A DNA stretch of 34,697 nucleotides from an uncultured Clostridia bacterium (GCA_946626015.1 CAMOTT010000001.1:1-34697), one strand, 5' to 3'; shown: positions 2,493-33,511, counted from the first letter of the stretch. The notes: generated by a model from the letters alone, not told the origin. Translations and numbers: made by a program.

Positions 2493-3923
2493 TTATTTTG
2501 CTCCGGAGCCGGTAAACATATTCTTCGCTGTCTTGAGTATCAGCTTGATGTCAAAAGCTATGTTCATGTTCCTTATGTATTCCATATCCAGCTCAACGAC
2601 CTTTTCAAAGTCGGTTATATCGCTCCTGCCGTTTGCCTGCCACATTCCCGTCAGACCCGGGCGAATCGCCATACGCGCCCTGTGTTTGGGGCCGTATTTT
2701 TCCCACTCGTCCAGCGTGGGGGGGCGTGTGCCAACAAGGGACATATCGCCCTTAAGCACCATAAAGAACTGGGGAAATTCGTCTATGGAGAACTTGCGTA
2801 TGAACCAGCCGATGCCTTTCTTTGTGCCGTCCTTTCCGCTGCCGAGGATCCTGGGGTCGTTGTCCATTTTGAACATCATGCCGTCCGCTATCCGGTTTTG
2901 GCTCATCAGCTCCGCCTTGTGCGCCTCGGCGTCCTTGTACATGGAGCGAAATTTGACCATTTTGAACACTCTGCCGCCCTTGCCTATACGCTTCTGTGAG
3001 AAGAAAATGGGGCCGGGATCGGTGATAAAGATCAGCGGTCCGACTATCAAGGTAAGGAGTATGGTTATAACCGAGCCGATCAGGCCGCCGATAATATCTA
3101 TGACGCGCTTGACAAAATACTGATAGGTGGGCATTATGCTGACGCTTTCGGTGAGGCAGGTGTAACCGTATATTTTTTCGATGATCTTGTTTCTGTGATA
3201 ATCCATGTCGAAATCTATCACTCTGTGTACCACGATACCCATTTCCAGGATCTTGTCTACCACCTCTCTGGGCGCCCTGGTATTGGGCAGGTTCATGTAG
3301 ACTTCATCCAGCCAGACGTTTTGGATCAGATCGGGTAGATCCTCCACTTCGCACAGGACCTTGTAGCCTTTGACCTCATCCCCGACTTTGTATTTCTGGC
3401 TTGCGAAGGCAACGACTCCCGCTATCTCAAACTGCCTGAAGGAATGTTCGCTCATGCGTTCTATCATGCCCTCCAGAACTTCGTCGGTAGCCACAAGGAC
3501 TATCTTGCTCTTTCTGTCGGAGGCGCTCAGACCCTTTTTGACAAGCCACTTGAGAGCAAGCTTTATCAGAAAATCGAGCACTATGCCCGCGGCAAATAAT
3601 ATGCAGATATTCAACGTGCGCGGAACCACGCCCTCAACGAGCGCCAGGTACAGCAGAGCAACGGCATCACAGACGCCGACATAGACCACGGAGATAACAA
3701 GCTCCATTATCTTGCTGCGGTACAGCAAGTATCTGTAAAGCCTGGGAACTGTTCCCGCGAACATACTGAAAAGGGCAAGAATGATCGCCCCGCTCAGATA
3801 TGGTCTGAACAGAGAACTGTCCTTTGGAGTAAGTATCACTAAATAGACTGCCAGCATTGTGACCGTTTCCATGATCCTGAAATCTAAATGTGACAGCCAG
3901 CCGTGCTTGCTTTTTTTATACAT
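2493..3923 (-). CDS. Polyprenyl-phosphate sugar-1-phosphate transferase (WbaP/CpsE-like initiating enzyme)
   Basis: 476-aa ORF with N-terminal TM helices, a central soluble region and the C-terminal bacterial sugar-transferase signature (KRIGKGGRVFKMVKFRSM, DEFPQFFMVLKGDMSLVGTRPP, RPGLTGMWQANGRS). Confidence 0.9.
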   Translation of the reverse strand: MYKKSKHGWLSHLDFRIMETVTMLAVYLVILTPKDSSLFRPYLSGAIILALFSMFAGTVPRLYRYLLYRSKIMELVISVVYVGVCDAVALLYLALVEGVVPRTLNICILFAAGIVLDFLIKLALKWLVKKGLSASDRKSKIVLVATDEVLEGMIERMSEHSFRQFEIAGVVAFASQKYKVGDEVKGYKVLCEVEDLPDLIQNVWLDEVYMNLPNTRAPREVVDKILEMGIVVHRVIDFDMDYHRNKIIEKIYGYTCLTESVSIMPTYQYFVKRVIDIIGGLIGSVITILLTLIVGPLIFITDPGPIFFSQKRIGKGGRVFKMVKFRSMYKDAEAHKAELMSQNRIADGMMFKMDNDPRILGSGKDGTKKGIGWFIRKFSIDEFPQFFMVLKGDMSLVGTRPPTLDEWEKYGPKHRARMAIRPGLTGMWQANGRSDITDFEKVVELDMEYIRNMNIAFDIKLILKTAKNMFTGSGAK

Positions 3924-3964
3924 TATCTTTGCCCCCGTTTTTGTTATCGGAACAACGCCGTGTC

Positions 3965-5749
3965 TTATTTGAGCTTCAATTTCTCAAAGGTGCGGTGGAT
4001 AAGCTCTCTGACGTTGTAGTTATTATCGTCCGTTGAATTGAGGTAAACCACCGAATATTTTATCTTCATTTCGATCTGCTTGTCGTTATAGTCTTCAACG
4101 CTGTTGTTGAGCATTCCGATAAACAGATCCGCTTTTTGGGAACTGCACTGGTCAAACAGACCCAGGAACTGGCCTGCGCCGTTGTAGGCCATAAAGCCGT
4201 AATTCCTTGAAAGGGATTTTATTATACGGCCGAAATCGCCCAGCAGGGTGTCCGCCGCGGTGCGTCCCATAGTTGCGTTCAGATCGAACAGATTGTCCAG
4301 CTTTATTATGATGCAGGTAAACTGTTCTCCCAGATCCTTCTCGCTCAACAAGCTTATGTGTATATCGCACATCTGACGATTGGGAAGCTGAGTGTTTTTA
4401 TCTGTATAGATTATGTACTGGATAAAGTCCTTGAGCCTGCCTATGACCACAGCGCCCACGCAGCCGAAGAACAGGAAGAACACAAGCGCAAGAGCAAGGT
4501 AAAGCTTGATGTTCACCTTTTGCGAGGTAACAACTGAATTAAGGATGTTGAGGTAGCTTGCGCCGATGTATTCGTTGAGCTCTCTTGCGGTTTCTTTGAC
4601 GATTTTATACTGGTTGCCAAGGGTGTTCACAAGATCCCCTATATCGTTCTCCACCTCAATGCTGAGAACTTGGTTTTGCTGATTGTCCACAAACACCGAT
4701 CTGATGTATTCCGCGTGTTCTTTGTCTATCTGATCGTTTTTGATGGATTGATTGATGCCGACATATTCCTGAATGAGGTCATCGTAGGTGGTTATGACGT
4801 TTATATCTCTGTCGTAACCATCCACGTCCATTATGACTGACGCACCGGAGCTCTCGTTTGAGGAGTCCTGATTTTCGATCTTGGTGCTGTTGATGCCCTT
4901 CTCGCTGTAATTGTCGATAAGAGCCTTGAGCTTGTCGGCCTTTTCGGTGTTGTTCGCGATGTTGATATCCAGATTTTCAATGCGGTTCTGCTGCTTTTTC
5001 AGGAGCAGGTCGTTGTCCTTTGTATATTTCCCCTGCAGGATGCTTGCGTACAGGTGAGGCACCTTGTTTTTTATGATGTAGCCGTAAATATTCTCCAGGT
5101 CGGCAAAGGTGTAGCCTGTTGCGGAGGCTCTGAACTCCGGGTATGAGGATCTTTTCTGCAAAAGATAGTCGTCTATGCTCTTGACCGATTCCTGAATGAC
5201 CTCGGCGCTCTCTATGTAGTCGTAATCATTTGAGCTGATGTTTGCCGCATTGTTGGGGAGGATAAGCTGGTCGATGTACCTTTCGCTGTAAAACATATAG
5301 TAGTTTTTGATAACGGCATCCAGCATATTTCCAACATAGTTCATGGATTTTTCCGAATCGGCCTCAAAGGTTATGGCGTAGTCCGTGGGAAAGTAGAAAT
5401 ATTCCTCACCCTTGCTCAGGACGGTCTCTTTTTTCTGATCCTCCTCTTCGGGTATGATGGGGCGGACCTTGATCTTTGAGCGCACCTCGTCCACCGAACT
5501 GTTCAGACCCAGATCCTCGATAGCGCCCTTGATGACCGTTGAGGAATATATCTCTGAAACGTCCAGCTTTGAACCGTTGGGGGTAAGACCCTCGCTGATG
5601 GCTCCATTGGCGTAGCGTATGACCGTTGTGGCCGTGTACACCTGCTGAGAATTGGCGTAGGAATAGACCCAGACGGCTCCCAGAAGAGCCACAATGAGAA
5701 TGACGATCCTACCTTTGTAAAGGTAACGTAAGAGTTGAAACTCCTTCAT
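3965..5749 (-). CDS. Wzz-like polysaccharide co-polymerase fused to a degenerate C-terminal GGDEF-fold domain
   Basis: PCP topology: TM1 IVILIVALLGAVWVYSY, a ~380-aa coiled-coil-rich outside domain, then TM2 LYLALALVFFLFFGCVGAVVIG. The last 146 aa (nt 3968-4405) follow the GGDEF domain pattern: TDKNTQLPNR (cf. D-LTGLxNR), IIIKLDNLFDLNATMGR (cf. iDiDhFKxiNDxxGH), AADTLLGDFGRII, then NGAGQF (nt 4166-4183) where GG(D/E)EF would be. Start chosen at ATG 5749, with GGAGG 8 nt upstream; the ORF track starts at an in-frame GTG at 5758. Confidence 0.75.
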   Translation of the reverse strand: MKEFQLLRYLYKGRIVILIVALLGAVWVYSYANSQQVYTATTVIRYANGAISEGLTPNGSKLDVSEIYSSTVIKGAIEDLGLNSSVDEVRSKIKVRPIIPEEEDQKKETVLSKGEEYFYFPTDYAITFEADSEKSMNYVGNMLDAVIKNYYMFYSERYIDQLILPNNAANISSNDYDYIESAEVIQESVKSIDDYLLQKRSSYPEFRASATGYTFADLENIYGYIIKNKVPHLYASILQGKYTKDNDLLLKKQQNRIENLDINIANNTEKADKLKALIDNYSEKGINSTKIENQDSSNESSGASVIMDVDGYDRDINVITTYDDLIQEYVGINQSIKNDQIDKEHAEYIRSVFVDNQQNQVLSIEVENDIGDLVNTLGNQYKIVKETARELNEYIGASYLNILNSVVTSQKVNIKLYLALALVFFLFFGCVGAVVIGRLKDFIQYIIYTDKNTQLPNRQMCDIHISLLSEKDLGEQFTCIIIKLDNLFDLNATMGRTAADTLLGDFGRIIKSLSRNYGFMAYNGAGQFLGLFDQCSSQKADLFIGMLNNSVEDYNDKQIEMKIKYSVVYLNSTDDNNYNVRELIHRTFEKLKLK

Positions 5750-7157
5750 CCCTGTCACCTCCGCTGAAATACCTGAGTCTTAACCAGATTACGGCAAAAA
5801 TACCCGCGAGCATCAACGCCGCAAGGGTTATGAGCGTGTCAAGACTGATTTTTTGTTTTATTGACGGATTTGAATTCTTAAAGGTCACGTAATCCTTTGT
5901 TCTGTACTTTACGTACGCCTTGTCCACCAGCTCTATTTGCTTGGAAAGCTCTGTGAATTTGCGGCGTATGTCGTTTATCATATCTTTGGCTTTTTGGATG
6001 TTCCCGGCGCTGTTTGTGCTCGCGTTCATCTTGTTGATTATATCCTCGTTTGTGGCGATCTCCTTTGAGGTCTCCTGCGCGGTAAGCAGATAATCGTCAG
6101 CCTGACCCGCCATATAGTCCATGCCGGTTTTCGTCTTGGCCATATAGTAAGTGCTCTTGCTCTTGTCGATGGAGGGGATCATGACCACGCTGATCATGGA
6201 CTCGTCGTAAAGCTTTATGCCATCGTTGCGGACGTCGTAGGCCGCCATATCCTTTTTGTAGTCGATGCCCTTTATCAGGTTGACATAGGAGAGAGCCTTT
6301 GTGTACTTTGCCTTGTCGTAAGAAGGCCCTGCCTGTATGACAAAGGTGCGGTATTTGCTGATATCGTAAGTCCGCAGATCCTCGACCTTTTGGGCAAGGG
6401 ATTTGAAGGATTCGTCAGACTCCTGCTCTGTAAAGGTCTTGTTCTGCTTTGCCCTTGTGTTGAGGTATTTTTCGATCTGCTGCGCCTTAAGGTCAAGCAG
6501 GTCGGCTATCTGCAGGAATTCATCGTCGTGGAACTCGTCTATATCAAAATCAAGTATAGAGCGGTTCTCGGTATATTTTGAGTAGAGATTATCCTTGTAA
6601 GCCTTGCACAGGAGAGAAAGCAGATCCTTTGCGCTCATGTCTTTTATCTCCGGAGGTTTTTTCAAGGTTATCCTGTAGGATGTGGATATATAATAATTAT
6701 CCTCGGAGAAAGCCTTCGCGTTGGTAGGTCTGATCGAAATGGAGCGCATAATGCTGTTCACGTCCACGCTTTTCTTGTCGATACCGGCGTAGGCGAGCAT
6801 ATTCTCCACAACCTCCTGACTGGCGAAGTCATAGGCGTTGAAACGGGTCGAATTTGGATTCAATCCTTTGGCGCTTTCTTCATAATTCAAACTCATTTCC
6901 GTTGTCGCAGAGCTTTCACTTTTTATAAAAAACCAGCCTGCCGCCACCGTCAACACCAGCACAAGCACAACGAGTATCGGCGTCCTCAGCTTGAGCATGG
7001 AGATAAGGGCTTTTCTGGCATAGGAGCGATCCGCGAAATCGGAGTTGATCCCGTCAATCACATTGGTGAGGGGAGAAAATATTTTTCTGACAGTTCTTTT
7101 GTAAAGATTTTCGCGTTTTCTTTTGAGATAAATGTTGTTGTTATAATCTTCTTCCAT
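5709..7157 (-). CDS. Wzz-like polysaccharide co-polymerase / chain-length determinant paralog (no cytoplasmic domain)
   Basis: 482-aa ORF with one TM near the N-terminus (ILVVLVLVLTVAAGWFFI) and one near the C-terminus (LITLAALMLAGIFAVIWL), flanking a large hydrophilic helical domain. The post-TM1 segment SATTEMSLNYEESAKGLNPNSTRFNAYDFASQEVVENMLAYAGI is paralogous to YTATTVIRYANGAISEGLTPNGSKLDVSEIYSSTVIKGAIEDLGL in the next gene. RBS AAGGAGGAG. Its 3' end overlaps the next gene by 41 nt. Confidence 0.65.
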   Translation of the reverse strand: MEEDYNNNIYLKRKRENLYKRTVRKIFSPLTNVIDGINSDFADRSYARKALISMLKLRTPILVVLVLVLTVAAGWFFIKSESSATTEMSLNYEESAKGLNPNSTRFNAYDFASQEVVENMLAYAGIDKKSVDVNSIMRSISIRPTNAKAFSEDNYYISTSYRITLKKPPEIKDMSAKDLLSLLCKAYKDNLYSKYTENRSILDFDIDEFHDDEFLQIADLLDLKAQQIEKYLNTRAKQNKTFTEQESDESFKSLAQKVEDLRTYDISKYRTFVIQAGPSYDKAKYTKALSYVNLIKGIDYKKDMAAYDVRNDGIKLYDESMISVVMIPSIDKSKSTYYMAKTKTGMDYMAGQADDYLLTAQETSKEIATNEDIINKMNASTNSAGNIQKAKDMINDIRRKFTELSKQIELVDKAYVKYRTKDYVTFKNSNPSIKQKISLDTLITLAALMLAGIFAVIWLRLRYFSGGDRDEGVSTLTLPLQR

Positions 7158-7206
7158 TTACCGCTCCTCCTTTCTTTATGTTTAGGTATAAAACTTCGTT
7201 ACGGGA

Positions 7207-8109
7207 TCAGTACCAGCATATATCGACGACCACAAGCTCCGGCTGGTTGTTGATCCTGGGGATCTTTGTGGAATCCCCCAGGCCTCTGCTTATTACCACC
7301 TGGGTCCCGTCATCCACGGTCTTGACACCCTCTGTGAGTTTGGGAAACAAGCCTTCGCCGCCGCTGTAAAGTCCACCCACCTTCGGGATACGGATCAGGC
7401 CGCCGTGGGCGTGACCGGTAAAGGCGATATCAATGCCCCTGTTCAGCAGATATTCGCAGAACAGCTCCGGATAATGGGTTAGGCAGATCCGGCAGTTGTC
7501 CGTTGGCTCAAGGGAGTTGAGGAATTTCTGGGCGTTGTTGGTTTTAACGTCGAATTGATCTCTGCCCTCCGAAATGGCGATGAGCTGAATGGTGGAACCG
7601 TTCACCTCAATGTCAGCCGCCTCGTTGCTCAGGATATTGATGTTATGCTCTTTCATTTTATCTTTAAAGGTCTTATCCCTGAAAAGATACTGATCCAGCT
7701 CGTTGTTGCCGAAGCAGGCGTAGATGGGCGCCGTCTTGCAAAGCTTGTCCGAGAGATCGAACAATACGGAATAATCGTCCACCTTGTAGTTCATCATATC
7801 CCCGGCGTAAAAGATCAGATCCGGTTTGAGGGACTGTATCCGCTTTACAAGCTGCTCGTTTTTCGCGCCGTACTCCTTATTGTGGAGATCTGCCAGCTCG
7901 ACGACCCTTATATTGTCCGAGATCTTAAGGGAACGAACCTGATAAAATGTAACAGTAAAGTTTTTGTTCAGCACAAAAATGTTATAGGCAACATAGGAAG
8001 CCGCCAATGCGATAATAAACAGCAGCACAAGCAGCAGGGCTATGAGCTTTGAATGCTTCTTCTTGGGGCGTTTTATTTTCTCTGCTCCATCTTTGGTTTT
8101 GCTCATCAT
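7207..8109 (-). CDS. Membrane-anchored calcineurin-like metallophosphoesterase (YkuE/YaeI-like)
   Basis: 300-aa ORF. A basic N-terminus (KIKRPKKKHSK) and a single TM (LIALLLVLLFIIALAASYVAY) precede the metallophosphoesterase motifs ADLH, GDMM, GNNE and GHAHGG. RBS AAGGGAGG. Confidence 0.8.
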   Translation of the reverse strand: MMSKTKDGAEKIKRPKKKHSKLIALLLVLLFIIALAASYVAYNIFVLNKNFTVTFYQVRSLKISDNIRVVELADLHNKEYGAKNEQLVKRIQSLKPDLIFYAGDMMNYKVDDYSVLFDLSDKLCKTAPIYACFGNNELDQYLFRDKTFKDKMKEHNINILSNEAADIEVNGSTIQLIAISEGRDQFDVKTNNAQKFLNSLEPTDNCRICLTHYPELFCEYLLNRGIDIAFTGHAHGGLIRIPKVGGLYSGGEGLFPKLTEGVKTVDDGTQVVISRGLGDSTKIPRINNQPELVVVDICWY

Positions 8110-8144
8110 ACCGCCTCCCTTTCATTTTGTATAATGTTGAACCC

Positions 8145-8723
8145 TCAGTCCAGGTTGAGCTCCTTTGCAAGGTTTGAGTGGGAATTGTTGTCGCTTATTT
8201 TTTTTGCGGGGTTGCCCGCGATGGTTATGCCGTCATCGGTAAAGCTTTTTGTCACAACGCTGTTGGCGCCGATGGCAATGTCGCTGCCGATGGTTATTTT
8301 GCCGATTATCGAAGTGCAGGGACCGATAAACACATTGTCCCCCAGAACAGCGGCCTCGCTCTGACCGTTGGTGGCGCCGATGGTGACGCACTGATGTATT
8401 CGGCAGTTTTTGCCGATGCGCGCCGAGGGGTGCACAACGATGGGCCCCCAGTGGGCGATGGAAAGTCCCTCCTCAAAGGTATTGGGCGGAATGTGAAATC
8501 CGCAAAGCTTCCTGCCCTTTTTGCGGAGCCTGTAATGATACCAGACCGCTATTGCCTTGCCCAGCGGACCTTTTTTGCAGTTCATGTAATACTCGGTCTT
8601 TCTGAGCATTATCTCATACTGCCATATCTCGTCCCCGGCAAGTCTGGGTTTTTTCCTCTTTTTATAAAGAGCTATCCTGTCCTGTTCCAGATAACGCTTC
8701 AGGTCGGCTTTGCTTTTTATCAT
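8145..8723 (-). CDS. Hexapeptide-repeat O-acetyltransferase (serine acetyltransferase-like, EPS-type)
   Basis: Left-handed beta-helix repeats (ARIGKNCRIHQCVTIGAT, LGDNVFIGPCTSIIGKITIGSDIAIGANSVV) follow an N-terminal helical region MIKSKADLKRYLEQD that is typical of CPS acetyltransferases. Start placed at ATG 8723 (RBS GGGGAAAGAG); the ORF track uses an upstream GTG at 8750. Confidence 0.8.
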   Translation of the reverse strand: MIKSKADLKRYLEQDRIALYKKRKKPRLAGDEIWQYEIMLRKTEYYMNCKKGPLGKAIAVWYHYRLRKKGRKLCGFHIPPNTFEEGLSIAHWGPIVVHPSARIGKNCRIHQCVTIGATNGQSEAAVLGDNVFIGPCTSIIGKITIGSDIAIGANSVVTKSFTDDGITIAGNPAKKISDNNSHSNLAKELNLD

Positions 8724-9798
8724 TGACTCTTTCCCCTTTGATTTTTTCACCGCTCACGGCGCGCAGCAGATAATCGCCGCTGTCCTGGCGGATGCTGTCG
8801 ATGTATTTATAAACTTTATCGTAATCTATTTTTTCATCGCTTTCGGCGGTGATATCCCTGTTGCCTATGCCGAACTGGTCAAGCAGGGCGGCGATTTTTC
8901 TGACCCTGCTGTCGATGGAGGCGTAGACCCGGAAATCCTTTCGGTTCAGGATGGAGAAAACCACGCCGTGGAACGTTCCGGTGTAAACGTACTCCGCTCT
9001 TCTGAACAGCTCCGCCCACTCAAAGGGGTCAAGCCTTACCGACATCTGAGAATACAGTTTATCGTATTCCCCGGCGCCCAGGACCTCATACCCTTTTTCT
9101 CTGGCGCTGTCCGCCAGCTTCTTTTTAAGCTCACGGGGTATGCCGTTGCAGTAGTAGAACAGCACGTAGGGCTTTTCGGTGAGCCGGTTTATCTTCTCGT
9201 TGTCTATCTTCGGCGTAGGTGTGAGGAAGGTTGGGTCGCACACAAGCTGCGGCGTGACGCCTAAGGCGTTCCGGCACAAAGCCTGGGCGCTTTTATCTCT
9301 TGCGGAAAGGGCGGTAAAGCCGCTCATGGCTTTGAGCACCTTTTCCGGCGCGTCCCCACCGGAGGCTTTGCCCGCGCTGGGGGCGTAGGCTACTATTCTT
9401 TCGCAGTCAAGACCGCCGCTGAATTTTATCATTGAAAAGCCTTTGGGGTCAAGATAATTCCAGACCTCGTCGCTGCCGATCACTATGCAGTCAAGTCCAA
9501 GGGAATTTATCTGCCCTGCGTTGTAGACTTTTTTTGTAAGATTAAGATACTTTTTCCGGTTCTTGGAAAAAATAGCAGGCTGGGTGATTTTGTTGAGCCA
9601 GGAAACCGGAGTCTCCGTTCCCGGATAAAACCTGAAAAAACCGCCCACGTTTATTATGTTCTGTTTGGGAATTATGTAGTTGATGATAAAGACCTGATCC
9701 TCCGGGAAAAGAGCCTTGAGTTTTTCCTGCAAAGCCCAGCCCTGAAGAAACGCGCCGAAATTATTTATGGTGTGATGAGTCAAAATACCTATCTTCAT
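8662..9798 (-). CDS. Polysaccharide pyruvyl transferase family protein
   Basis: N-terminus MKIGILTHHTINNFGAFLQGWALQ and overall length match my recollection of CsaB/WcaK-type pyruvyl transferases; needs HMM confirmation (PF04230). Start at ATG 9798 with RBS AAAGGAAA; the track start is 9819. The 3' end overlaps the acetyltransferase gene by about 62 nt. Confidence 0.7.
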   Translation of the reverse strand: MKIGILTHHTINNFGAFLQGWALQEKLKALFPEDQVFIINYIIPKQNIINVGGFFRFYPGTETPVSWLNKITQPAIFSKNRKKYLNLTKKVYNAGQINSLGLDCIVIGSDEVWNYLDPKGFSMIKFSGGLDCERIVAYAPSAGKASGGDAPEKVLKAMSGFTALSARDKSAQALCRNALGVTPQLVCDPTFLTPTPKIDNEKINRLTEKPYVLFYYCNGIPRELKKKLADSAREKGYEVLGAGEYDKLYSQMSVRLDPFEWAELFRRAEYVYTGTFHGVVFSILNRKDFRVYASIDSRVRKIAALLDQFGIGNRDITAESDEKIDYDKVYKYIDSIRQDSGDYLLRAVSGEKIKGERVNDKKQSRPEALSGTGQDSSL

Positions 9799-9836
9799 AA
9801 TTGTTTTCCTTTGCGTCATCGGCTGTCAGGCCGGTT

Positions 9837-10940
9837 TCATTTTATTCCGTTATACAGCTCCAGATAGAGCTCCTGCATCCGCGCCGCCTCAAACCTGATA
9901 TCGTAACCGGCGGCTTTCAGCTCGGCGCCCCGGTTCACCCTCTCCCTTTGCTCAAAATCAAGTATGGCCTTTGCCCATTTGAGAGGCTCCTCGTTTATGC
10001 TCATAAACTTGACGTTGTCCGTCACCTTGACCTCGGGGGTGATTGAGCCGGACATGGCGCAGGGAAGATCCGCCGCCTGAGCCTCCACGGCAACCACCGG
10101 CAGACCCTCGTTTTTGGAGGTCATGATAAAAACGTCAAAGGCGCTGTACCACTCGTTGACGTTGGTCTGCACCCCGGTGTAAGTCACGTGATCCGCTATC
10201 CCCAGCTCCGCCGTGTGTTTTTTCATCTCTTCCTCAAGCTCACCTGTGCCCACCATGACAAGATGGGTGTTGGGGTTGAGCCGGTGCATCTCGGCGAAGA
10301 TATCCAAAATCATTTTCTGGTTCTTTTGGGGCGTGAGTCTGCCCACGTGACCCAAAATGAACTTGTCGCCAAAGCCGTACTGTCTGCGGATAGCCGCCCT
10401 GGCCTCACTGTTGAAAGCAAAATCATCCACGTTTATGGCGTTATGTATGAGCTGATGTTTTTCGTTCCAGCGTTTTTCGGAAAAATAGAATTTGCCTGCC
10501 GCCTCAGAACAGCCCCAATAGTCTGTGGCAACGTATTTTATCATCGGGCGCATCAGCTTTTTAAGCTCGTTTTTAATGCCGAAGGGCACCGCGGTGGCGT
10601 GGGCGTGGGCTATCCGCACCGGGATATTATTCTTTTTTGCGGACTCCAGCGCGTAGAGCATAAGGGCGCCGTTGTGGGTGTGTATGATCTTGTACTCCGG
10701 GTGCTCCCTGAACAGCCCGGTCATGTAGTCAAGATATTTGCGGTAGCTCATAAATCCGGGGGATATAAAGATCCTACCGCCCATGGCTCTGATCTCTTCA
10801 TCATAGTCGCCGGGAGCCGGTTTGTTGGCAAGGAAGTCAAACTGGACCTGTTCCCTGTCCACGTTCCGGTAGAAATTCATCAGCATCGTTTCAATGCCGC
10901 CCCTATCCATATTGCTCACCGAATGTAAAATCCTGATCAT
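9837..10940 (-). CDS. Glycosyltransferase, GT4 family (GT-B fold)
   Basis: N-terminus MIRILHSVSNMDRGGIETMLMN, and C-terminal E-x7-E motif NEGLPVVAVEAQ. ATG 10940 is preceded by AGAGGTG; the track start is a TTG at 10961. Confidence 0.85.
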   Translation of the reverse strand: MIRILHSVSNMDRGGIETMLMNFYRNVDREQVQFDFLANKPAPGDYDEEIRAMGGRIFISPGFMSYRKYLDYMTGLFREHPEYKIIHTHNGALMLYALESAKKNNIPVRIAHAHATAVPFGIKNELKKLMRPMIKYVATDYWGCSEAAGKFYFSEKRWNEKHQLIHNAINVDDFAFNSEARAAIRRQYGFGDKFILGHVGRLTPQKNQKMILDIFAEMHRLNPNTHLVMVGTGELEEEMKKHTAELGIADHVTYTGVQTNVNEWYSAFDVFIMTSKNEGLPVVAVEAQAADLPCAMSGSITPEVKVTDNVKFMSINEEPLKWAKAILDFEQRERVNRGAELKAAGYDIRFEAARMQELYLELYNGIK

Positions 10941-10968
10941 ATCCACACCTCTGAAGCGCAAGCTTTTG

Positions 10969-12372
10969 TTACTTTTCTATCCTCATTTTGGGTTCTCTCC
11001 GCCATTCTTTCTCCTTTTGCCTTTTCCTGTGCAGCCATCTTTCAAACCTGTTCATCCTGAACACGTCTGTTTCTTTTAAGACTATACTCTTTACCGGGGC
11101 AAAGAAGAACGAAAGCGGTATCATTCTGATAACCATGCTGGACCAGTAATAGAACATGGTGTTGTCCGTCATATAAGTGACGAGCATATAGATGTTTATT
11201 ACAATAAAACATACGGCTGTTTTTTCCCCGCACCTGTCTATATACCAACGGGTCTGGTAGATATAGTAGCCCAATATCCATGCGGCAAAGCCCCAGAAGC
11301 CCATTTCAACGTACATCTTAAGGATGTCGTTATGGACAGCGTTGATGTTGACCACCTGATCCTTGGTTCCCTTCATGCTTTTGAGCAGGTGGACGCAGAA
11401 CTCATAGCCCTTGCCCCGGTAGGAGGGGGATACTTTATAGAAGTTGGAGATGTAATCGTAGATCCTCTCTCTGCCGTTGAGCTCGATATCGTGCTCGATG
11501 CAAAATTTTGTAAAAGTGCCGTCTTGTATGATAACGATATAAAAATAACAGAATATAACGATGATGACGGCTGACAGCATCAGGGTGACTCTCTTGCCCC
11601 TTGGCCCCAGGAGCATACAGAAGCACGCAAACAGGGCAGCCACAAGCAGGCTCAGGAAAGCTATTCGTTTCAAGCCCGCGAAGAAAAAGAACAGCGCAGT
11701 CGCGGCGTAAAGATACCTGTATTTTTCGCCGGGAGTGAAAAACAGGAAATAAAGCACATACACGCCCATAACAAAGGTGATGTCGTGTATCTCAATGGCC
11801 CTTATAAACTTTGAGTTGACTATAACGTCGTTGGCGCCGAAGGAGGTGATATTGGCTATCAGATCCCTGAGCGCGCCGACCGGACCGGTGCTGGCCATAC
11901 CCAAAAGTATTATCACAAAATTGGCGGCCGCAAGGCCGAAGAAGGTGTATTTCGCCGCTTTATCCTCAAACATATATACGGCGCACAAAACTATGGCGAT
12001 ATTCAAAAACTGATAGGATATTTTTGAGACGCCTTTAACGATATAACCGATGGTTTGAAAATCAATGATCCATGTGAGGATCGAGCACAGGATTATGCCG
12101 ATTATTATTGAGGAAAACAGCAGTCCGAAACGGGACAGAAGCTTAAAATTCCTGAAATTCCCGGTCCACAGCACATATGCCGCCGCAAGCCCGACAACTC
12201 CCACGGAAACAACCTTGGGCAGAGCGCCTAAAGCGATGTTGAGCACTTTCCAGTCTCCCATGGCGGCACCGAAAATAAAGAATATGTACAGACCGATAAA
12301 TATTTTGGAATTTTTTGTGTATAGCTCTTTCATTTCGCCCTGCTTTCGTATCTTTTTCGTGTTTGATACCAT
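10969..12372 (-). CDS. Wzy-like polysaccharide polymerase / O-antigen-ligase-family membrane protein
   Basis: 467-aa polytopic membrane protein with about 10-12 hydrophobic helices and one larger loop, located among glycosyltransferases in a locus that also has Wzx. The family call rests on topology and context, not a diagnostic motif. Alternative start at MKELY (12333). Confidence 0.6.
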   Translation of the reverse strand: MVSNTKKIRKQGEMKELYTKNSKIFIGLYIFFIFGAAMGDWKVLNIALGALPKVVSVGVVGLAAAYVLWTGNFRNFKLLSRFGLLFSSIIIGIILCSILTWIIDFQTIGYIVKGVSKISYQFLNIAIVLCAVYMFEDKAAKYTFFGLAAANFVIILLGMASTGPVGALRDLIANITSFGANDVIVNSKFIRAIEIHDITFVMGVYVLYFLFFTPGEKYRYLYAATALFFFFAGLKRIAFLSLLVAALFACFCMLLGPRGKRVTLMLSAVIIVIFCYFYIVIIQDGTFTKFCIEHDIELNGRERIYDYISNFYKVSPSYRGKGYEFCVHLLKSMKGTKDQVVNINAVHNDILKMYVEMGFWGFAAWILGYYIYQTRWYIDRCGEKTAVCFIVINIYMLVTYMTDNTMFYYWSSMVIRMIPLSFFFAPVKSIVLKETDVFRMNRFERWLHRKRQKEKEWRREPKMRIEK

Positions 12373-12411
12373 CGCCGGATTTTTTGATCGTTATTTATTG
12401 AAAAATTTATC

Positions 12412-13521
12412 TTATTTTTTTATTTTCAAAATTCGTTTGTATAGGCCGCAGCACACGTTGTACCGTTTATCGCCGGTCAGAAGCCAATCCATTTTTCCGA
12501 ATTTTTTCTTTTTGATGAGGATGGCGGGCAGAGCCCATTCCTCCCTGTGGCTCTTTTGGGCGTCAAAGCATTTTATCGCGCTCTTGTACGGCTCGGTTTC
12601 GATTATATTCAGAAAATCCTGTTTTCTTTCTTCTTTGCTGTGGGGGTTATCCTTGTGGAAAACGTTCAGGCGCATACAATCGATAAGCATGGACATCACC
12701 CGGTTGTTGAGGTACCTCTCCTCCACCTCCGCGTCTCCCGGAAAATATTCGTTTTTGCAGGCTTCAAGATGCCCGTGGAGGGATTGCAAGACGGGAACAA
12801 GGTCTTTGCTGTATCTGCGGGTTATCCCCTGAGGATTGTTCCTGTAATAGTACATAACATAGGGCAGGTAGGCAACCTTCTGCGCGTAATAATATGCCCT
12901 TGTATTAAAAACGCTGTCCTGGGCTTTTTTCTGCCCGTCCGGGAACAGCAGGTCGTTGCCGGTCAAAAAATCTTTTCTGTAAAGAGCCGCCCATGCCGCG
13001 TGGTAGAAGGCAGTTGAGGGCAGGCCGATTTTTCCGGCTATGCTGGTATCAAGGCAAAGGCAGGAGATGCTGAGCTCCCTGCCTGCCTCGCGGGGCAGCT
13101 CCGTCAGTTCAGTAACGGCGCAGGGCTGTTCCTCCTGTTTTTTCTCCGCGAACTTCAGCCTGTCGTAAATTATGATATCGTAATCGGTTTCGCAGAGCTT
13201 ATCAAGGGCGGTCGCAACAAAATAGTCGGAGAGCAGGTCGTCGCCGTCCGCAAAAAGGATCCACTTGCCCGCGGCCTCCTCGATGGTGCGGTTCCTGACA
13301 CGGCTGAGTCCGCCGTTTTGTTCCATTTTTATGTACCTGACCCTGCTGTCCTGCGCGGCATATTCCCGGCACACCTCGCCGGAATTGTTGGTTGAGCAAT
13401 CGTCAATGAGGAGCAGCTCTGTTTCGTCGGTGAGCTGCCTTACGGTGCTTTCGATGTTCTCTCTCAGGAGGTTCTCTTCAATATTGTAGATCGCCGTTCC
13501 GATGCTCAGTTTGACAGCCAT
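12412..13521 (-). CDS. Glycosyltransferase, GT2 family (GT-A fold)
   Basis: N-terminal GT2 pattern LSIGTAIYNIEENL...LLLIDDCSTNNSGE...LFADGDD (DxD). RBS GGGGAAAGAGAG. Confidence 0.85.
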   Translation of the reverse strand: MAVKLSIGTAIYNIEENLLRENIESTVRQLTDETELLLIDDCSTNNSGEVCREYAAQDSRVRYIKMEQNGGLSRVRNRTIEEAAGKWILFADGDDLLSDYFVATALDKLCETDYDIIIYDRLKFAEKKQEEQPCAVTELTELPREAGRELSISCLCLDTSIAGKIGLPSTAFYHAAWAALYRKDFLTGNDLLFPDGQKKAQDSVFNTRAYYYAQKVAYLPYVMYYYRNNPQGITRRYSKDLVPVLQSLHGHLEACKNEYFPGDAEVEERYLNNRVMSMLIDCMRLNVFHKDNPHSKEERKQDFLNIIETEPYKSAIKCFDAQKSHREEWALPAILIKKKKFGKMDWLLTGDKRYNVCCGLYKRILKIKK

Positions 13522-13760
13522 AATTTGTTTCTCTCTTTCCCCTGTGCTTCATACGCTTTGATTTTCCGCCGTTTGCGTTATAGGTGCAACAAAGCAGTCC
13601 TAATATTTGCCTTTTTTGCAAAAAAAGAATACACAAAAGACAAAATACTTGGACTTTAACCTTTAGTATAGTAAAAAATTGCGGAAAAATCAACAAAAAA
13701 AACAAAAAATCTTTAAAATATCAAGTATTTTTTCTTGTAAGGCATTATCATGTGCTCAAC

Positions 13761-13789
13761 TTGACAAGCAAACCGCCGTACTGTATAAT
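13761..13789 (+). promoter_or_regulatory. Consensus sigma-A promoter for the TagF-like gene
   Basis: TTGACA (13761-13766), 17 nt, TATAAT (13784-13789). Both hexamers are perfect. It lies 40 nt upstream of ATG 13829. Confidence 0.75.
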
Positions 13790-13828
13790 TTAGACAATTA
13801 TAAACATAAACAAGGAACAGTGAAAAAT

Positions 13829-14998
13829 ATGTATAAAATCAAACGATTGTTCATCTATATCCGCGTTTTTCTTATGATGCTGGCAGCTGAGACAGCCGGG
13901 CTTTTCCTCCGGCGCAGCAAAGCCTTCAAGGATCTTTGGATAGTTGCCGAAAGGGGCATTGACGCCCGGGACAACGGCTACCACTTTTTCAAATTTTTGA
14001 AAAGGGAGCACCCGGAGATAAACTCTGTCTACATCATCACAAAGGACTCCCCCGACAGGGGCAAGGTGGCCGCCTGCGGCGAAACGGTGAACTACGGAAG
14101 CTTCCGGCATTATTTATGTTTTGCCCTTGCAACGGTCAGGGTGAGCACCCATATTGACGGATACTCCCCGGACATCCTGTTCTTCAACAAATTCGGCAGG
14201 CTCTTCCCCTGCAAAGCAAAAAATATTTTCCTGCAGCACGGCATCATAAAAGACGACCTGACCTTCTGCCACGCCGACAACACGAACATAGATATGTTCG
14301 TCTGCTCCGCCGTGCCGGAATACGAATACATCGACAAGGTTTATGGGTATAAGGAGGGCGTATTGCAGCTCACCGGTCTGTGCAGGTTCGACAACCTGAA
14401 AAAGCCCGAACAGCCTTCCCGCAAAATTCTTTTTATGCCCACATGGCGCGCAAGCCTGCGCACCTGCAACAGGCAGACCTTCCTTGCAAGCGAATATTTC
14501 AAAAAATACAACTCGTTCCTCAACAGCCGCAAGCTCTCCGGGCTCCTTGAGAAATACGGCTACGGGCTGGTGTTCTACCCCCACTACGAGGTACAGCGTT
14601 TTATCGATTGCTTCAATACAGAGCTCCCCGGGGTGCAGATAGCCGATTTCAAGCACAACGACGTGCAGGAGCTGCTCATAAACAGCGATATACTTCTGAC
14701 CGATTATTCCAGCGTATATTTTGATTTCGGATATATGAGGAAGCCCATGGTATTTTACCAGTATGACGAGGCCGCGTTCCGCGCGGAGCAATACGGCAAA
14801 GGGTATTTCGATTACAAGCGCGACGGCTTCGGCGCCGTGGTGGAGACAGAGGATGAGGTGATCGAAAGCCTTGAGCACATACTCAAAAACGACCTGCGCC
14901 CCGATGACGTTTACCTCGGGAGGATGAACGCATTTTTCAAATTCAACGACGCAAACAACTGCCGCAGGGTCTACGAGGCGATCTGCAGGCTGCTTTAA
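13829..14998 (+). CDS. CDP-glycerol (or CDP-ribitol) glycerophosphotransferase, TagB/TagF family
   Basis: C-terminal TagF-type catalytic pattern (FMPTWR, LLINSDILLTDYSSVYFDFGYMRKPMVFYQYD, YGKGYFDY). Start at ATG 13829 (AAGGAA upstream); the track's upstream extension to 13679 would run through the promoter. The stop codon overlaps the wzx stop. Confidence 0.85.
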   Translation: MYKIKRLFIYIRVFLMMLAAETAGLFLRRSKAFKDLWIVAERGIDARDNGYHFFKFLKREHPEINSVYIITKDSPDRGKVAACGETVNYGSFRHYLCFALATVRVSTHIDGYSPDILFFNKFGRLFPCKAKNIFLQHGIIKDDLTFCHADNTNIDMFVCSAVPEYEYIDKVYGYKEGVLQLTGLCRFDNLKKPEQPSRKILFMPTWRASLRTCNRQTFLASEYFKKYNSFLNSRKLSGLLEKYGYGLVFYPHYEVQRFIDCFNTELPGVQIADFKHNDVQELLINSDILLTDYSSVYFDFGYMRKPMVFYQYDEAAFRAEQYGKGYFDYKRDGFGAVVETEDEVIESLEHILKNDLRPDDVYLGRMNAFFKFNDANNCRRVYEAICRLL

Positions 14999-16545: not shown

Positions 16546-16562
16546 AAACTCTCAACCACTAA

Positions 16563-17693: not shown

Positions 17694-17762
17694 AAAACAA
17701 GCTCCGGATTTCTGAAAATTTCAAAATAAGTATAGTTTGCCTTTTTTCACATAGATAATGTA

Positions 17763-17791
17763 ATAATAACATATTAGTGTACAAAAATCAA
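17763..17791 (-). promoter_or_regulatory. Candidate sigma-A promoter for the polysaccharide operon
   Basis: Read on the minus strand: TTGATT (17786-17791), 17 nt, TATTAT (17763-17768), preceded by TGn (extended -10). About 70 nt upstream of ATG 17693. Confidence 0.5.
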
Positions 17792-17796
17792 CATAA

Positions 17797-17817
17797 TTTG
17801 ATGATTAGATCATCAAA
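17797..17817. promoter_or_regulatory. Inverted repeat (candidate operator or 5'-UTR hairpin) in the divergent control region
   Basis: TTTGATGAT-tag-ATCATCAAA: perfect 9-bp arms with a 3-nt spacer. It ends 10 nt before the GGAGGAAA RBS of the FrhB-like gene and starts 6 nt beyond the -35 box of the divergent operon promoter. Confidence 0.4.
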
Positions 17818-17836
17818 TCGTGTTTTTGGAGGAAAC

Positions 17837-31709: not shown

Positions 31710-31713
31710 TTTG

Positions 31714-31742
31714 TTGACTTTTTGTGTTGTAAATGATATAAT
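31714..31742 (+). promoter_or_regulatory. Near-consensus sigma-A promoter for the GT-C/GT2 pair
   Basis: TTGACT (31714-31719), 17 nt, TATAAT (31737-31742). It begins 5 nt after the MFS stop codon, at the point where base composition drops. Confidence 0.7.
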
Positions 31743-31779
31743 TTTTAAGCAAATTCACATATGTGGCAGGGGGATTTTC

Positions 31780-33507: not shown

Positions 33508-33511
33508 AGAG

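What the first reader, a model, noticed from the sequence alone, without database searches (positions are those of the whole stretch)
3965..7157. Tandem Wzz-like co-polymerases, the second fused to a degenerate cytoplasmic GGDEF domain, in a locus with no tyrosine kinase
Seen in sequence:
- Two adjacent, 41-nt-overlapping genes encode proteins with PCP topology (TM, large helical outside domain, TM).
- Their post-TM1 segments are paralogous (GLNPNST... versus GLTPNGS...).
- The second protein continues after TM2 into a 146-aa cytoplasmic domain (nt 3968-4405). Its sequence tracks the GGDEF fold block by block: TDKNTQLPNR, IIIKLDNLFDLNATMGR, AADTLLGDFGRII.
- The catalytic signature reads NGAGQF (nt 4166-4183), and the residues aligned to the RxxD I-site read RNYG.

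Established knowledge: in Gram-positive Wzy-dependent loci the co-polymerase works with a BY-kinase (CpsC/CpsD), or is fused to one (PCP-2a), plus a CpsB phosphatase. Degenerate GGDEF domains (PelD, PssE) can act as c-di-GMP receptors that switch on EPS synthesis.

Inference: the BY-kinase module has been replaced here by a non-catalytic nucleotide-binding or dimerising GGDEF module. That would be an undescribed way to couple polymerisation or chain length to a nucleotide signal. I found no Walker-A kinase, PHP phosphatase or LCP gene anywhere in 2493-19036. Because the canonical I-site is also degenerate, the ligand (GTP, c-di-GMP at a non-canonical site, or none) is open.
Basis: partly seen in the sequence, partly recalled or inferred. 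Interest (0 to 1): 0.82.

Follow-up and report, generated by a model that had tools for sequence, protein, structure and literature searches.

The report
Kinase-free co-polymerase pair with dead GGDEF
In a sugar-polymer gene cluster of an uncultured rumen-type Clostridium, two related membrane proteins that look like chain-length regulators sit side by side, and one carries an inactive copy of the enzyme domain that normally makes the signal molecule c-di-GMP, suggesting an undescribed, kinase-free way to control polymer assembly.

Summary
Gene A (3965-5749, minus) and gene B (5709-7157, minus) overlap by 41 nt. Both encode TM / about 380-aa helical outside domain / TM proteins and are remote paralogs (hhalign 95%, E 3.5e-8). 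A ends in a genuine GGDEF fold (Pfam E 1.9e-11; Foldseek TM about 0.75). That domain is catalytically dead (GAGQF) and has no RxxD I-site (RNYG).

New here: the Metallophos-B-A order is identical in 28 orthologous loci. The three genes, beside Wzy, recur in five far more divergent loci. In a library clustered at 50% identity, 79 of the 150 best relatives of A's N-terminal part carry the same degenerate domain. It has its own conserved Y-N-G-x-G-Q-F motif, never GG[DE]EF or RxxD. Three relatives carry an EAL domain instead, about 45 carry nothing, and one is fused to the Metallophos. Seven orthologous loci have DGC/PDE/HD-GYP genes just downstream of A. No BY-kinase, PHP or LCP gene was found.

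Sequence evidence that A and B belong to the PCP family is only borderline. The ligand is unknown.

Verdict: a real, unreported variant, a kinase-less PCP-like module with an add-on c-di-GMP-type cytoplasmic domain.

The parts
3965..5749 (-). Gene A: PCP-like membrane protein with a C-terminal degenerate GGDEF domain. 594 aa from ATG 5749; residue numbers in this report use the 597-aa GTG frame starting at 5758.
   Evidence: ORF and translation. Start codon and SD sequence. More than 120 orthologs at 66-98% identity, about 590 aa long. Pfam GGDEF above cut-off and Wzz below cut-off.
5648..5707 (-). A, TM1 (aa about 18-37), preceded by a K/R-rich cytoplasmic N-terminus
   Evidence: Hydropathy. 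AF2 helix 17-37. The sub-threshold Wzz PF02706 match covers aa 8-53.
4511..5647 (-). A, extracytoplasmic domain (aa about 38-416): an alpha/beta base plus long helices
   Evidence: AF2 secondary structure. Paralogous to B over aa 18-227. A profile of this part finds 959 clusters at E <= 1e-3.
4433..4510 (-). A, TM2 (aa about 417-442), with a G-x-x-G-x-x-x-x-G pattern and no proline-rich motif
3992..4408 (-). A, cytoplasmic degenerate GGDEF domain (aa 451-589)
   Evidence: PF00990 E 1.9e-11. PDB profile hits. Foldseek TM 0.7-0.77 to GGDEF domains. Model pLDDT 80-89.
4166..4186 (-). Y-N-G-A-G-Q-F (aa 525-531), at the position of R-x-G-G-[DE]-E-F. This is a family-specific conserved motif: Y in 67/80, N in 74/80, F in 66/80.
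4196..4207 (-). R-N-Y-G (aa 518-521), at the position of the RxxD inhibitory site. No RxxD in any of the 80 sequences aligned (the window protein and 79 relatives).
5709..7157 (-). Gene B: PCP-like paralog without a GGDEF domain. It has a 57-aa basic cytoplasmic N-tail, TM1 at about 58-80 and TM2 at about 439-464. It has no Pfam or NCBIfam match.
   Evidence: Always immediately upstream of A. Best structural matches are Wzc/Wzz, but they are weak.
7207..8109 (-). Membrane-anchored calcineurin-like phosphoesterase (Metallophos, YaeI/LpxG-like), predicted N-in with the catalytic domain outside. It is the third conserved member of the module.
   Evidence: Pfam and NCBIfam. TM at 17-48. Adjacent to B-A in all 26 orthologous loci that reach that far (the other two hold only B-A) and in five divergent loci. 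Fused to an A-type protein behind an extra TM in P0293.
2493..3923 (-). Initiating phosphoglycosyl transferase (Bac_transf), 41 nt downstream of A
   Evidence: E 9e-57
10969..12372 (-). Wzy-type polymerase (Wzy_C)
   Evidence: Conserved next to the module in relatives.
14995..16545 (-). Wzx-type flippase (Polysacc_synt)
8145..19036 (.). Rest of the polysaccharide locus: hexapeptide acyltransferase, pyruvyl transferase, GT4, GT2, glycerophosphotransferase (+ strand), GT4 and an FrhB-like protein (+ strand)
   Evidence: Same gene order in orthologous loci.

Best explanation
A and B are a conserved pair of divergent, kinase-less co-polymerase-like (PCP-like) membrane proteins. Together with the outward-facing, membrane-anchored Metallophos enzyme and Wzy, they form the assembly and length-control end of a Wzx/Wzy-dependent pathway in a rumen-type Clostridium (Oscillospiraceae-like). 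The product appears to be a pyruvylated, acylated, glycerol-phosphate-bearing polysaccharide.

A's C-terminal 146 aa are a GGDEF fold that cannot make c-di-GMP and cannot bind it at the classical I-site. The domain is kept under selection with its own Y-N-G-x-G-Q-F motif.

The most likely role is a cytoplasmic regulatory and oligomerisation module. It would set the assembly state or activity of the A/B complex in response to the guanine-nucleotide / c-di-GMP network. It could do this by binding a guanine nucleotide in the remnant substrate pocket, or by pairing with the GGDEF domain of a neighbouring active cyclase. In that sense it would be a functional analogue of the BY-kinase ring of Wzc or CpsCD.

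Shown: architecture, fold, degeneracy, conservation, gene neighbourhood.
Inferred: PCP function, hetero-complex formation, nucleotide or partner sensing.
For: - Architecture and fold.
- Catalytic death: on the HMM alignment to solved cyclases, GGDEF becomes GAGQF and the first Asp of the D-x-D strand becomes K487. None of the 80 sequences aligned (the window protein and 79 relatives) has GG[DE]EF.
- Selection on the domain: 63% mean pairwise identity among orthologs, the same as for protein B. Across the 80 aligned sequences (the window protein plus 79 divergent relatives) these residues are kept: D453, N460, R461, G498, D503, Y525, N526, F531, R584, L586.
- Base-contacting residues: the Asn and Asp of the N-D-x-x-G-H-x-x-G-D block are retained. 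From my memory of PleD (N335, D344) these contact the guanine base. Here they are N494 (57/79) and D503 (64/80).
- Link to c-di-GMP: three relatives of the N-terminal domain carry an EAL domain at the same position. One of them has EAL, DDFG, KID and EGIE motifs. They cluster apart from the GGDEF-bearing group, which points to two separate acquisitions. An intact GGDEF cyclase, an EAL phosphodiesterase and an HD-GYP gene lie within 10 kb downstream of A in seven orthologous loci.
- Role in EPS assembly: the Metallophos-B-A order is strict in 28 orthologous loci. The B/A/Metallophos trio sits beside Wzy in five divergent loci.
- PCP-likeness: Wzz is the only recurrent Pfam hit for the N-terminal part (22 of 84 relatives; P0304 is above the cut-off). 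The best Foldseek hits for B are Wzc, WzzE and FepE.
- No kinase.
Against: - No RxxD I-site anywhere in the family. Every characterised degenerate-GGDEF c-di-GMP receptor I know of uses it.
- The metal- and phosphate-binding residues are gone, and the protein ends before the usual K-x-x-G-R-N helix. GTP binding is therefore far from assured.
- The window itself, and its closest relatives (74-81% identity), have no c-di-GMP gene next to the locus.
- About 45 of the 150 best relatives lack any cytoplasmic domain, yet P0304, the one whose locus was examined, keeps B, Metallophos and Wzy. The domain is therefore dispensable for the core job.
- PCP membership by sequence is weak. A scores 18.9 bits against a cut-off of 25.5, and B scores nothing. 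hhalign against E. coli WzzB/WzzE/FepE gives 33% probability, for the first 95 residues only. No solved PCP is found by sequence profile. There is no proline-rich TM2 motif. Foldseek E-values are all >= 1.9e-3 with TM <= 0.36.
- The AF2 models are of moderate quality (pLDDT 64 and 73.5).
- A BY-kinase elsewhere in the genome cannot be excluded.
Confidence: 0.5

Rival explanations
1. The GGDEF-fold domain is a ligand-free structural module. It would be a dimerisation or docking surface that organises the cytoplasmic face of the A/B oligomer, or recruits the initiating transferase or glycosyltransferases. It would have no nucleotide input. The GGDEF ancestry would be historical only.
For: There is no I-site, no metal ligands and no GG[DE]EF in any of the 80 aligned sequences. 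The domain is absent from about a third of the family without loss of the conserved partners in the one domain-less locus examined. The window has no c-di-GMP gene nearby. Precedents from my own knowledge: the degenerate GGDEF domains of LapD and CsrD bind no nucleotide.
Against: An EAL domain was acquired independently at the same position in sister proteins. c-di-GMP turnover genes cluster next to A in seven loci. The guanine-contacting Asn/Asp pair and a sharply conserved Y-N-G-x-G-Q-F loop at the former active site are retained. A pure scaffold would not obviously need to keep these.
Confidence: 0.28
2. A and B are not chain-length co-polymerases. They would be a different envelope scaffold that positions the outward-facing Metallophos phosphodiesterase. 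That enzyme might cleave the lipid-pyrophosphate or glycerol-phosphate linkage to release or trim the polymer. The cytoplasmic domain would gate this step.
For: The Metallophos gene is as tightly linked to A and B as they are to each other. It is fused to an A-type protein behind an extra TM helix in P0293. The Metallophos resembles the pyrophosphatases LpxG and YaeI. The PCP sequence hallmarks are weak or missing. There is no LCP ligase in the locus.
Against: Topology, size, helical outside domain, best structural neighbours (Wzc, Wzz, FepE) and adjacency to Wzy all fit a PCP. The two roles are not mutually exclusive. There is no biochemical evidence for the Metallophos substrate.
Confidence: 0.15
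3. The protein is what public databases call it: an active diguanylate cyclase whose outside domain senses something.
For: NCBI names the orthologs 'diguanylate cyclase'. Pfam GGDEF scores above its cut-off.
Against: The signature is GAGQF. The metal-binding Asp is Lys. None of the 80 aligned sequences has GG[DE]EF. The score against the TIGR00254 GGDEF model is below its cut-off (24.3 against 37.4).
Confidence: 0.02

Closest known systems
PCP-2 co-polymerases with BY-kinase (E. coli Wzc; CpsC/CpsD, CapA/CapB, TkmA/PtkA of Firmicutes)
   Same: Two-TM protein with a helical outside domain in a Wzx/Wzy locus, carrying a nucleotide-binding-fold module on the cytoplasmic side of TM2. Wzc chains are the best Foldseek matches of B.
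   Different: There is no P-loop kinase, no tyrosine cluster and no phosphatase. The cytoplasmic module is a GGDEF fold. The outside domain (about 380 aa) is much larger than I recall for Gram-positive PCP-2b proteins. Two paralogs work in tandem. No NCBIfam/TIGRFAM PCP model matches.
PCP-1 Wzz proteins (WzzB, WzzE, FepE)
   Same: Size and topology. A Q-x-Y-T-A-like motif follows TM1, which is the region matched by PF02706. No kinase.
   Different: Similarity is confined to about 95 N-terminal residues at 33% hhalign probability. There is no proline-rich motif at TM2. The host is a monoderm. A cytoplasmic domain is present.
Degenerate-GGDEF c-di-GMP receptors that switch on exopolysaccharide synthesis (PelD, Listeria PssE, B. 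subtilis YdaK)
   Same: A membrane-anchored, catalytically dead GGDEF domain encoded inside an EPS operon.
   Different: Those receptors bind c-di-GMP through an intact RxxD I-site and serve synthase-dependent systems (own knowledge; PelD GGDEF* is mentioned in PMC8892547). Here RxxD is missing in every member, the pathway is Wzx/Wzy-dependent, and the membrane part is PCP-like.
Degenerate GGDEF domains that bind GTP allosterically (Caulobacter PdeA/CC3396 type)
   Same: Loss of catalysis, with the guanine-contacting Asn and Asp retained.
   Different: Those domains regulate an attached EAL domain and keep most phosphate and metal ligands (own knowledge). Here there is no EAL, and the metal ligands are lost.

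Membership tests
Polysaccharide co-polymerase (PCP / Wzz superfamily) | Two TM helices flanking a large, mainly alpha-helical extracytoplasmic domain with an alpha/beta base | tested here: met
   Hydropathy. AF2 models of A and B.
Polysaccharide co-polymerase (PCP / Wzz superfamily) | Significant match to the Wzz N-terminal model PF02706 | tested here: inconclusive
   A scores 18.9 bits against a cut-off of 25.5. B has no match. 22 of 84 relatives match at E <= 0.01. The relative P0304 scores 28.8 bits, above the cut-off.
Polysaccharide co-polymerase (PCP / Wzz superfamily) | Proline/glycine-rich motif next to and running into TM2 (feature recalled from the PCP literature) | tested here: not met
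   There are 0 prolines in A aa 380-445 and 1 in B aa 400-465. No conserved Pro appears in the ortholog alignment. Only a G-x-x-G-x-x-x-x-G pattern is present in TM2 of A.
Polysaccharide co-polymerase (PCP / Wzz superfamily) | Fold or profile similarity to solved PCPs | tested here: inconclusive
   Foldseek of B: the top five hits are Wzc, with WzzE, FepE and 6rbg also listed. However, E >= 1.9e-3 and TM is 0.13-0.36. hhalign against WzzB/WzzE/FepE gives 33% probability, and against Wzc 6%. A PDB sequence profile finds no PCP.
Polysaccharide co-polymerase (PCP / Wzz superfamily) | Encoded with Wzx and Wzy in a polysaccharide locus | tested here: met
Polysaccharide co-polymerase (PCP / Wzz superfamily) | Controls polymer chain length or polymerisation | not testable with these tools
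   Needs genetics and polymer sizing.
PCP-2 (BY-kinase-coupled co-polymerase) | Walker A/A'/B tyrosine kinase fused to the PCP or encoded next to it, with a cognate phosphatase | tested here: not met
   No such Pfam domain in the window or among 84 relatives. None appears in the gene lists of seven relatives' loci. tblastn with a CpsD sequence recalled from memory gave no hit in the window or in the 34 related loci fetched by then (L001-L034).
GGDEF domain (PF00990) | HMM match above the gathering score, and the GGDEF fold | tested here: met
   44.4 bits against a cut-off of 23.8. Foldseek TM 0.7-0.77 and rmsd 2.5-3.5 A to solved GGDEF domains.
Active diguanylate cyclase | GG[DE]EF signature and metal-binding acidic residues | tested here: not met
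   The signature is GAGQF, and the first Asp of D-x-D is K487. 0 of the 80 aligned sequences have GG[DE]EF.
I-site type degenerate-GGDEF c-di-GMP receptor (PelD / PssE / YdaK / PopA) | RxxD five residues upstream of the signature | tested here: not met
   RNYG in the window. The motif is x-Y-G-F across the family, with no RxxD in any of the 80 aligned sequences.
I-site type degenerate-GGDEF c-di-GMP receptor (PelD / PssE / YdaK / PopA) | Binds c-di-GMP | not testable with these tools
   Needs DRaCALA, ITC or MST.
GTP-binding degenerate GGDEF (PdeA/CC3396-like) | Guanine-contacting Asn and Asp retained | tested here: met
   N494 and D503 align to the N and D of N-D-x-x-G-H-x-x-G-D. They are conserved in 57/79 and 64/80 sequences. 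The assignment of these residues to base binding is from memory of PleD.
GTP-binding degenerate GGDEF (PdeA/CC3396-like) | Phosphate and metal ligands retained; regulates an attached EAL domain | tested here: not met
   Metal ligands are lost. The protein ends before the usual K-x-x-G-R-N segment. A has no EAL domain.

The most novel reading that the evidence does not exclude
A three-part, kinase-independent machine controls the end of Wzy-dependent polymer assembly in gut and rumen Clostridia. It consists of a hetero-oligomer of two PCP-like paralogs, an outward-facing PCP-tethered metallophosphoesterase that cuts the lipid-pyrophosphate or phosphodiester link, and a cytoplasmic c-di-GMP-network module on one paralog. 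That module is either a Y-N-G-x-G-Q-F GGDEF variant with a non-canonical guanine-nucleotide or cyclase-partner site, or an EAL domain. This would be the first post-translational c-di-GMP (or GTP) checkpoint acting on a co-polymerase in a Wzx/Wzy pathway.
Probability: 0.25. Interest if true: 0.85.

Novelty: new variant of a known kind. Interest (0 to 1): 0.68.

Why it matters
Post-translational c-di-GMP control of exopolysaccharides is established for synthase-dependent systems (cellulose, alginate, Pel, PNAG, Pss, YdaK). In Wzx/Wzy-dependent systems the known cytoplasmic regulator of the co-polymerase is a tyrosine kinase.

Here a PCP-like protein has been joined to c-di-GMP-type domains, apparently twice and independently. 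No kinase is in sight, and a fixed ecto-phosphoesterase partner is always present. This offers a testable route to three questions:
- how kinase-less Gram-positive loci regulate polymerisation;
- what a GGDEF fold can do without either its A-site or its I-site;
- how polymers are released where no LCP ligase is encoded.

The finding also flags a systematic misannotation ('diguanylate cyclase') across many rumen and gut MAGs, whose capsules matter for host-microbe and phage interactions. In the full-text library searched I found no paper describing a Wzz/PCP-GGDEF or PCP-EAL architecture.

Tried and rejected
- Single-sequence search of A against the PDB: no hit. Only the family profile found GGDEF chains.
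- PDB profile of B and of the domain-less relatives: only spurious coiled-coil hits.
- Foldseek of the whole A model: swamped by GGDEF hits, so it says nothing about the N-terminal part.
- hhalign of the family against E. coli WzzB/WzzE/FepE and Wzc: weak (33%, 7% and 6% probability).
- NCBIfam: no PCP, MPA1 or BY-kinase model matched A or B.
- Homolog search with the GGDEF part alone: only three fragments, so it does not show whether this GGDEF subtype occurs in other architectures.
- Rfam scan for c-di-GMP (or any other) riboswitches in the window and four orthologous loci: nothing.
- Pfam scan of 72 unlabelled flanking ORFs from the orthologous loci: no recurrent kinase, PHP or LCP family. 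Only the top 25 of 134 families are displayed, so single occurrences cannot be excluded.
- Six literature searches: no description of the architecture.
- Rejected: active cyclase (signature and metal ligands lost).
- Rejected: classical I-site receptor (no RxxD).
- Rejected: chance ORF or pseudogene (hundreds of conserved orthologs).
- Rejected: 'replacement of a kinase' as a demonstrated event (no kinase-bearing relative found).

Full report
**What is in the window**

The minus strand between 2493 and 13521 carries one gene string. In order of transcription it is:
- GT2 (12412-13521)
- Wzy-type polymerase (10969-12372)
- GT4 (9837-10961)
- pyruvyl transferase (8662-9819)
- hexapeptide acyltransferase (8145-8750)
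- calcineurin-like phosphoesterase, 'Metallophos' (7207-8109)
- gene B (5709-7157)
- gene A (3965-5758 as listed)
- Bac_transf initiating transferase (2493-3923)

Further upstream lie a glycerophosphotransferase on the plus strand, a Wzx flippase, a second GT4 and an FrhB-like protein. This is a Wzx/Wzy-dependent polysaccharide locus.

Pfam scans of every sizeable ORF of the 34.7-kb window found no BY-kinase-type P-loop protein, no PHP phosphatase and no LytR-CpsA-Psr ligase.

**Check of the observation**

- A's true start is the ATG at 5749, behind GGAGG. This gives 594 aa and a 41-nt overlap with B (the database copy is 594 aa).
- Hydropathy and AlphaFold2 models give both proteins the same layout: cytoplasmic N-terminus, TM1, a beta-strand, an alpha/beta region, several very long helices, a beta-strand, then TM2.
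- A and B are not significantly similar pairwise (E 0.31). Profiles built from 29 orthologs of each align with 95% probability, E 3.5e-8, over TM1 and the first about 200 outside residues. HMMs of one family detect members of the other. They are remote paralogs.
- Residues 451-589 of A match Pfam GGDEF above the gathering score (E 1.9e-11). The family profile finds 46 solved GGDEF chains at E <= 1 (31 at E <= 0.001). The modelled domain (pLDDT 80-89) superposes on GGDEF structures with TM 0.7-0.77.
- On the HMM alignment to solved cyclases, GG[DE]EF corresponds to G-A-G-Q-F and RxxD to R-N-Y-G. The first Asp of the D-x-D strand is Lys487. The domain cannot be a cyclase and lacks the canonical inhibitory/receptor site.

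**How widespread it is**

A has more than 120 listed orthologs (66-98% identity, about 590 aa). B has a matching set on the same contigs.

A scan of one genome per species found 26 loci. Nearly all are titled as uncultured Clostridia, Oscillospiraceae or Ruminococcaceae MAGs; one is titled 'uncultured Bacteroides sp.'. Many are from goat or sheep rumen and gut.

In all of these loci plus two metagenome loci the order Metallophos-B-A is the same, and the rest of the locus is largely syntenic. Among orthologs the GGDEF-like part is 63% identical on average. That is lower than the outside domain (74%) but equal to protein B, so it is maintained by selection.

**The wider family**

A profile of A's N-terminal 445 residues was run against 1.84 billion representatives clustered at 50% identity. 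It found 959 clusters at E <= 1e-3 and 184 at E <= 1e-30. The best 150 break down as follows:
- 79 end in the same GGDEF-like domain;
- about 45 are complete proteins of 440-535 aa with no cytoplasmic domain;
- three carry an EAL domain instead (P0356 and P0373 at E 4e-59 and 3e-59; P0388 at E 1e-20);
- one (P0293) continues after the GGDEF-like domain through an extra TM helix into a Metallophos domain.

In all 80 aligned sequences (the window protein plus these 79) the former active site reads Y-N-G-x-G-Q-F or close variants. It is never GG[DE]EF. The I-site position reads x-Y-G-F, never RxxD.

The best conserved residues are D453, N460 and R461 (the canonical D-x-L-T-G-L-x-N-R start), G498, D503, Y525, N526, F531, R584 and L586. 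N494 and D503 align to the Asn and Asp of N-D-x-x-G-H-x-x-G-D. From my memory of PleD (N335, D344) these contact the guanine base.

Clustering of the N-terminal parts puts the GGDEF-bearing proteins in one group. The three EAL proteins fall in another group, next to domain-less ones. The scaffold therefore seems to have acquired a c-di-GMP-type domain twice.

P0356 has EAL, DDFG, KID and EGIE motifs and may be an active phosphodiesterase. P0373 and P0388 are progressively degenerate. P0356's cluster includes WP_216424180.1 from the cultured Acetivibrio sp. MSJd-27.

**Gene neighbourhoods**

Five divergent loci were examined: L029 (EAL type), L031 (fusion), L032 (no cytoplasmic domain), and L033 and L034 (GGDEF type). 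In each:
- a B homolog (E 1e-32 to 1e-125) lies immediately upstream of the A-type gene;
- a Metallophos gene, or the fused domain, is adjacent to the B-A pair (in L033, immediately upstream of B);
- a Wzy gene is within a few genes;
- no kinase is listed.

The core module is therefore B + A + Metallophos beside Wzy, and the cytoplasmic domain is an accessory.

About 19 orthologous loci have at least 3 kb of sequence downstream of A. In seven of them (L001, L002, L013, L017, L018, L020, L028) c-di-GMP turnover genes start right after A. These include AA_permease-GGDEF proteins with intact GGDEF, response-regulator/GGDEF/EAL proteins with EAL and DDFG, an HD-GYP protein, and Hpt and hybrid kinase genes.

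In the window and its closest relatives (L003, L006) the PGT gene occupies that place and no c-di-GMP gene is nearby. The seven loci may be related by descent, so this is supportive evidence and not a statistical proof.

**Are A and B co-polymerases?**

In favour:
- topology, size and a helical outside domain;
- position next to Wzy;
- Wzz (PF02706) is the only recurrent Pfam hit of the N-terminal part (22 of 84 relatives; P0304 is above the cut-off);
- Wzc, WzzE, FepE and 6rbg are the best structural neighbours of B.

Against:
- A's own Wzz score is below the cut-off and B has none;
- there is no proline-rich motif at TM2;
- Foldseek E-values are >= 1.9e-3 with low TM scores;
- hhalign against E. 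coli WzzB/WzzE/FepE reaches only 33%, for the first 95 residues, and against Wzc 6%;
- sequence profiles find no solved PCP.

I call them PCP-like. I rate true PCP function at roughly 0.8. Strict family membership is unproven.

**Most likely mechanism**

A and B probably form a hetero-oligomeric, kinase-less co-polymerase-like assembly around Wzy. The Metallophos enzyme would be tethered at its outer face. This orientation is inferred from its N-terminal basic stretch plus single TM, and from the extra TM in the fusion protein.

A's cytoplasmic GGDEF-fold domain is catalytically dead yet conserved, with a new motif at the old active site. The EAL-bearing sisters and the cyclase/phosphodiesterase neighbours argue that it connects the assembly to the c-di-GMP / guanine-nucleotide network. 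It could do so in two ways:
- by binding a guanine nucleotide in the remnant substrate pocket (the base-contacting Asn and Asp are kept);
- by pairing with the GGDEF domain of an active cyclase.

This would make it a functional analogue of the BY-kinase ring of Wzc or CpsCD.

The weak points are these. No I-site is present, the metal and phosphate ligands are lost, no c-di-GMP genes lie near this particular window, and a third of the family does without any such domain. A ligand-free scaffold role is the main rival (0.28). A role centred on positioning the Metallophos for polymer release is a second rival, and the two are not mutually exclusive (0.15). An active cyclase, the name in public databases, is essentially excluded.

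**Comparison with known systems and novelty**

The closest known systems are:
- PCP-2 co-polymerases with BY-kinases: same place and logic, different cytoplasmic fold, no phosphorylation apparatus;
- Wzz-type PCP-1 proteins: same topology, no cytoplasmic domain, only borderline sequence similarity;
- the degenerate-GGDEF receptors PelD, PssE and YdaK: same idea of a dead GGDEF inside an EPS operon, but they depend on the I-site and serve synthase-dependent systems.

Six full-text literature searches returned nothing on Wzz/PCP-GGDEF or PCP-EAL fusions.

I classify the finding as a new variant of a known kind, with an interest of about 0.68. The architecture is real, conserved and apparently undescribed, and it points to a kinase-free control point in Wzy-dependent synthesis. 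Against that, the ligand and even the PCP function are inferred, and most carriers are uncultured.

Noticed in passing
window 7207-8109 (-); L031 8001-10754; L029 10279-11115: A single-TM, probably outward-facing calcineurin-like phosphoesterase (YaeI/LpxG-like; motifs DLH, GD, GNNE, GHAH). It accompanies the B-A pair in every locus that extends far enough. In one relative (P0293) it is fused to the A-type protein behind an extra TM helix. It may be a polymer-release or trimming enzyme in loci that lack an LCP ligase.
   Followed up: partly
L001 11869-21773; L002 11800-21773; also L013, L017, L018, L020, L028: In seven orthologous loci, gene A is followed directly by a cluster of c-di-GMP genes. 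These include AA_permease-GGDEF with intact GGDEF, RR-GGDEF-EAL, HD-GYP, Hpt and a hybrid histidine kinase. In the window the PGT gene sits there instead.
   Followed up: partly
L029 8001-10295 (P0356; WP_216424180.1 of Acetivibrio sp. MSJd-27): Relatives of A carry a well-preserved EAL domain (EAL, DDFG, KID, EGIE) in place of the GGDEF-like domain. They keep the same B-like neighbour and Metallophos gene. One of them is from a cultured isolate and could serve as an experimental entry point.
   Followed up: partly
window 5709-5749: B's reading frame runs 41 nt into A here, adding a tail ...GGDRDEGVSTLTLPLQR. In L001 and L002 the two genes overlap by only 4 nt. The extension looks lineage-specific and its significance is unknown.
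   Followed up: no
window 8145-8750 / 8662-9819: The listed hexapeptide-transferase ORF (201 aa, GTG) overlaps the pyruvyl-transferase gene by 89 nt. Relatives have a 192-aa product with a small overlap, so the real start is probably further downstream.
   Followed up: no
window 8662-9819, 13679-14998 (+), 17777-19036 (+): The pyruvyl transferase, the FrhB-like Fe-S protein and the oppositely oriented CDP-glycerol glycerophosphotransferase are conserved across the orthologous loci. The polymer is therefore probably pyruvylated, acylated and glycerol-phosphate-substituted.
   Followed up: no
window 31687-34465 (+): A DUF6020 membrane protein (606 aa) is followed, with an overlap, by a GT2 glycosyltransferase, next to an MFS transporter. 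This is a second, separate glycan-related pair at the far end of the window.
   Followed up: no
window 1794-2333 (-) and 21-551 (-): There is a 179-aa protein with a signal peptide and no family match, and a 176-aa lipoprotein-like protein with no family match. Both lie just downstream of the locus.
   Followed up: no
P0003, P0017, P0026, P0042 and others: NCBI names the orthologs of A 'diguanylate cyclase', although none of the 28 aligned has a GG[DE]EF signature. This is a systematic misannotation in rumen and gut MAGs.
   Followed up: yes
L034 8001-10445 (P0243, 814 aa): Some A-type proteins carry a low-complexity tail of more than 200 aa, rich in Pro, Lys, Glu and Ser, after the GGDEF-like domain. 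B orthologs vary from 447 to 602 aa, apparently through a poorly conserved N-terminal cytoplasmic tail (36% mean identity).
   Followed up: no
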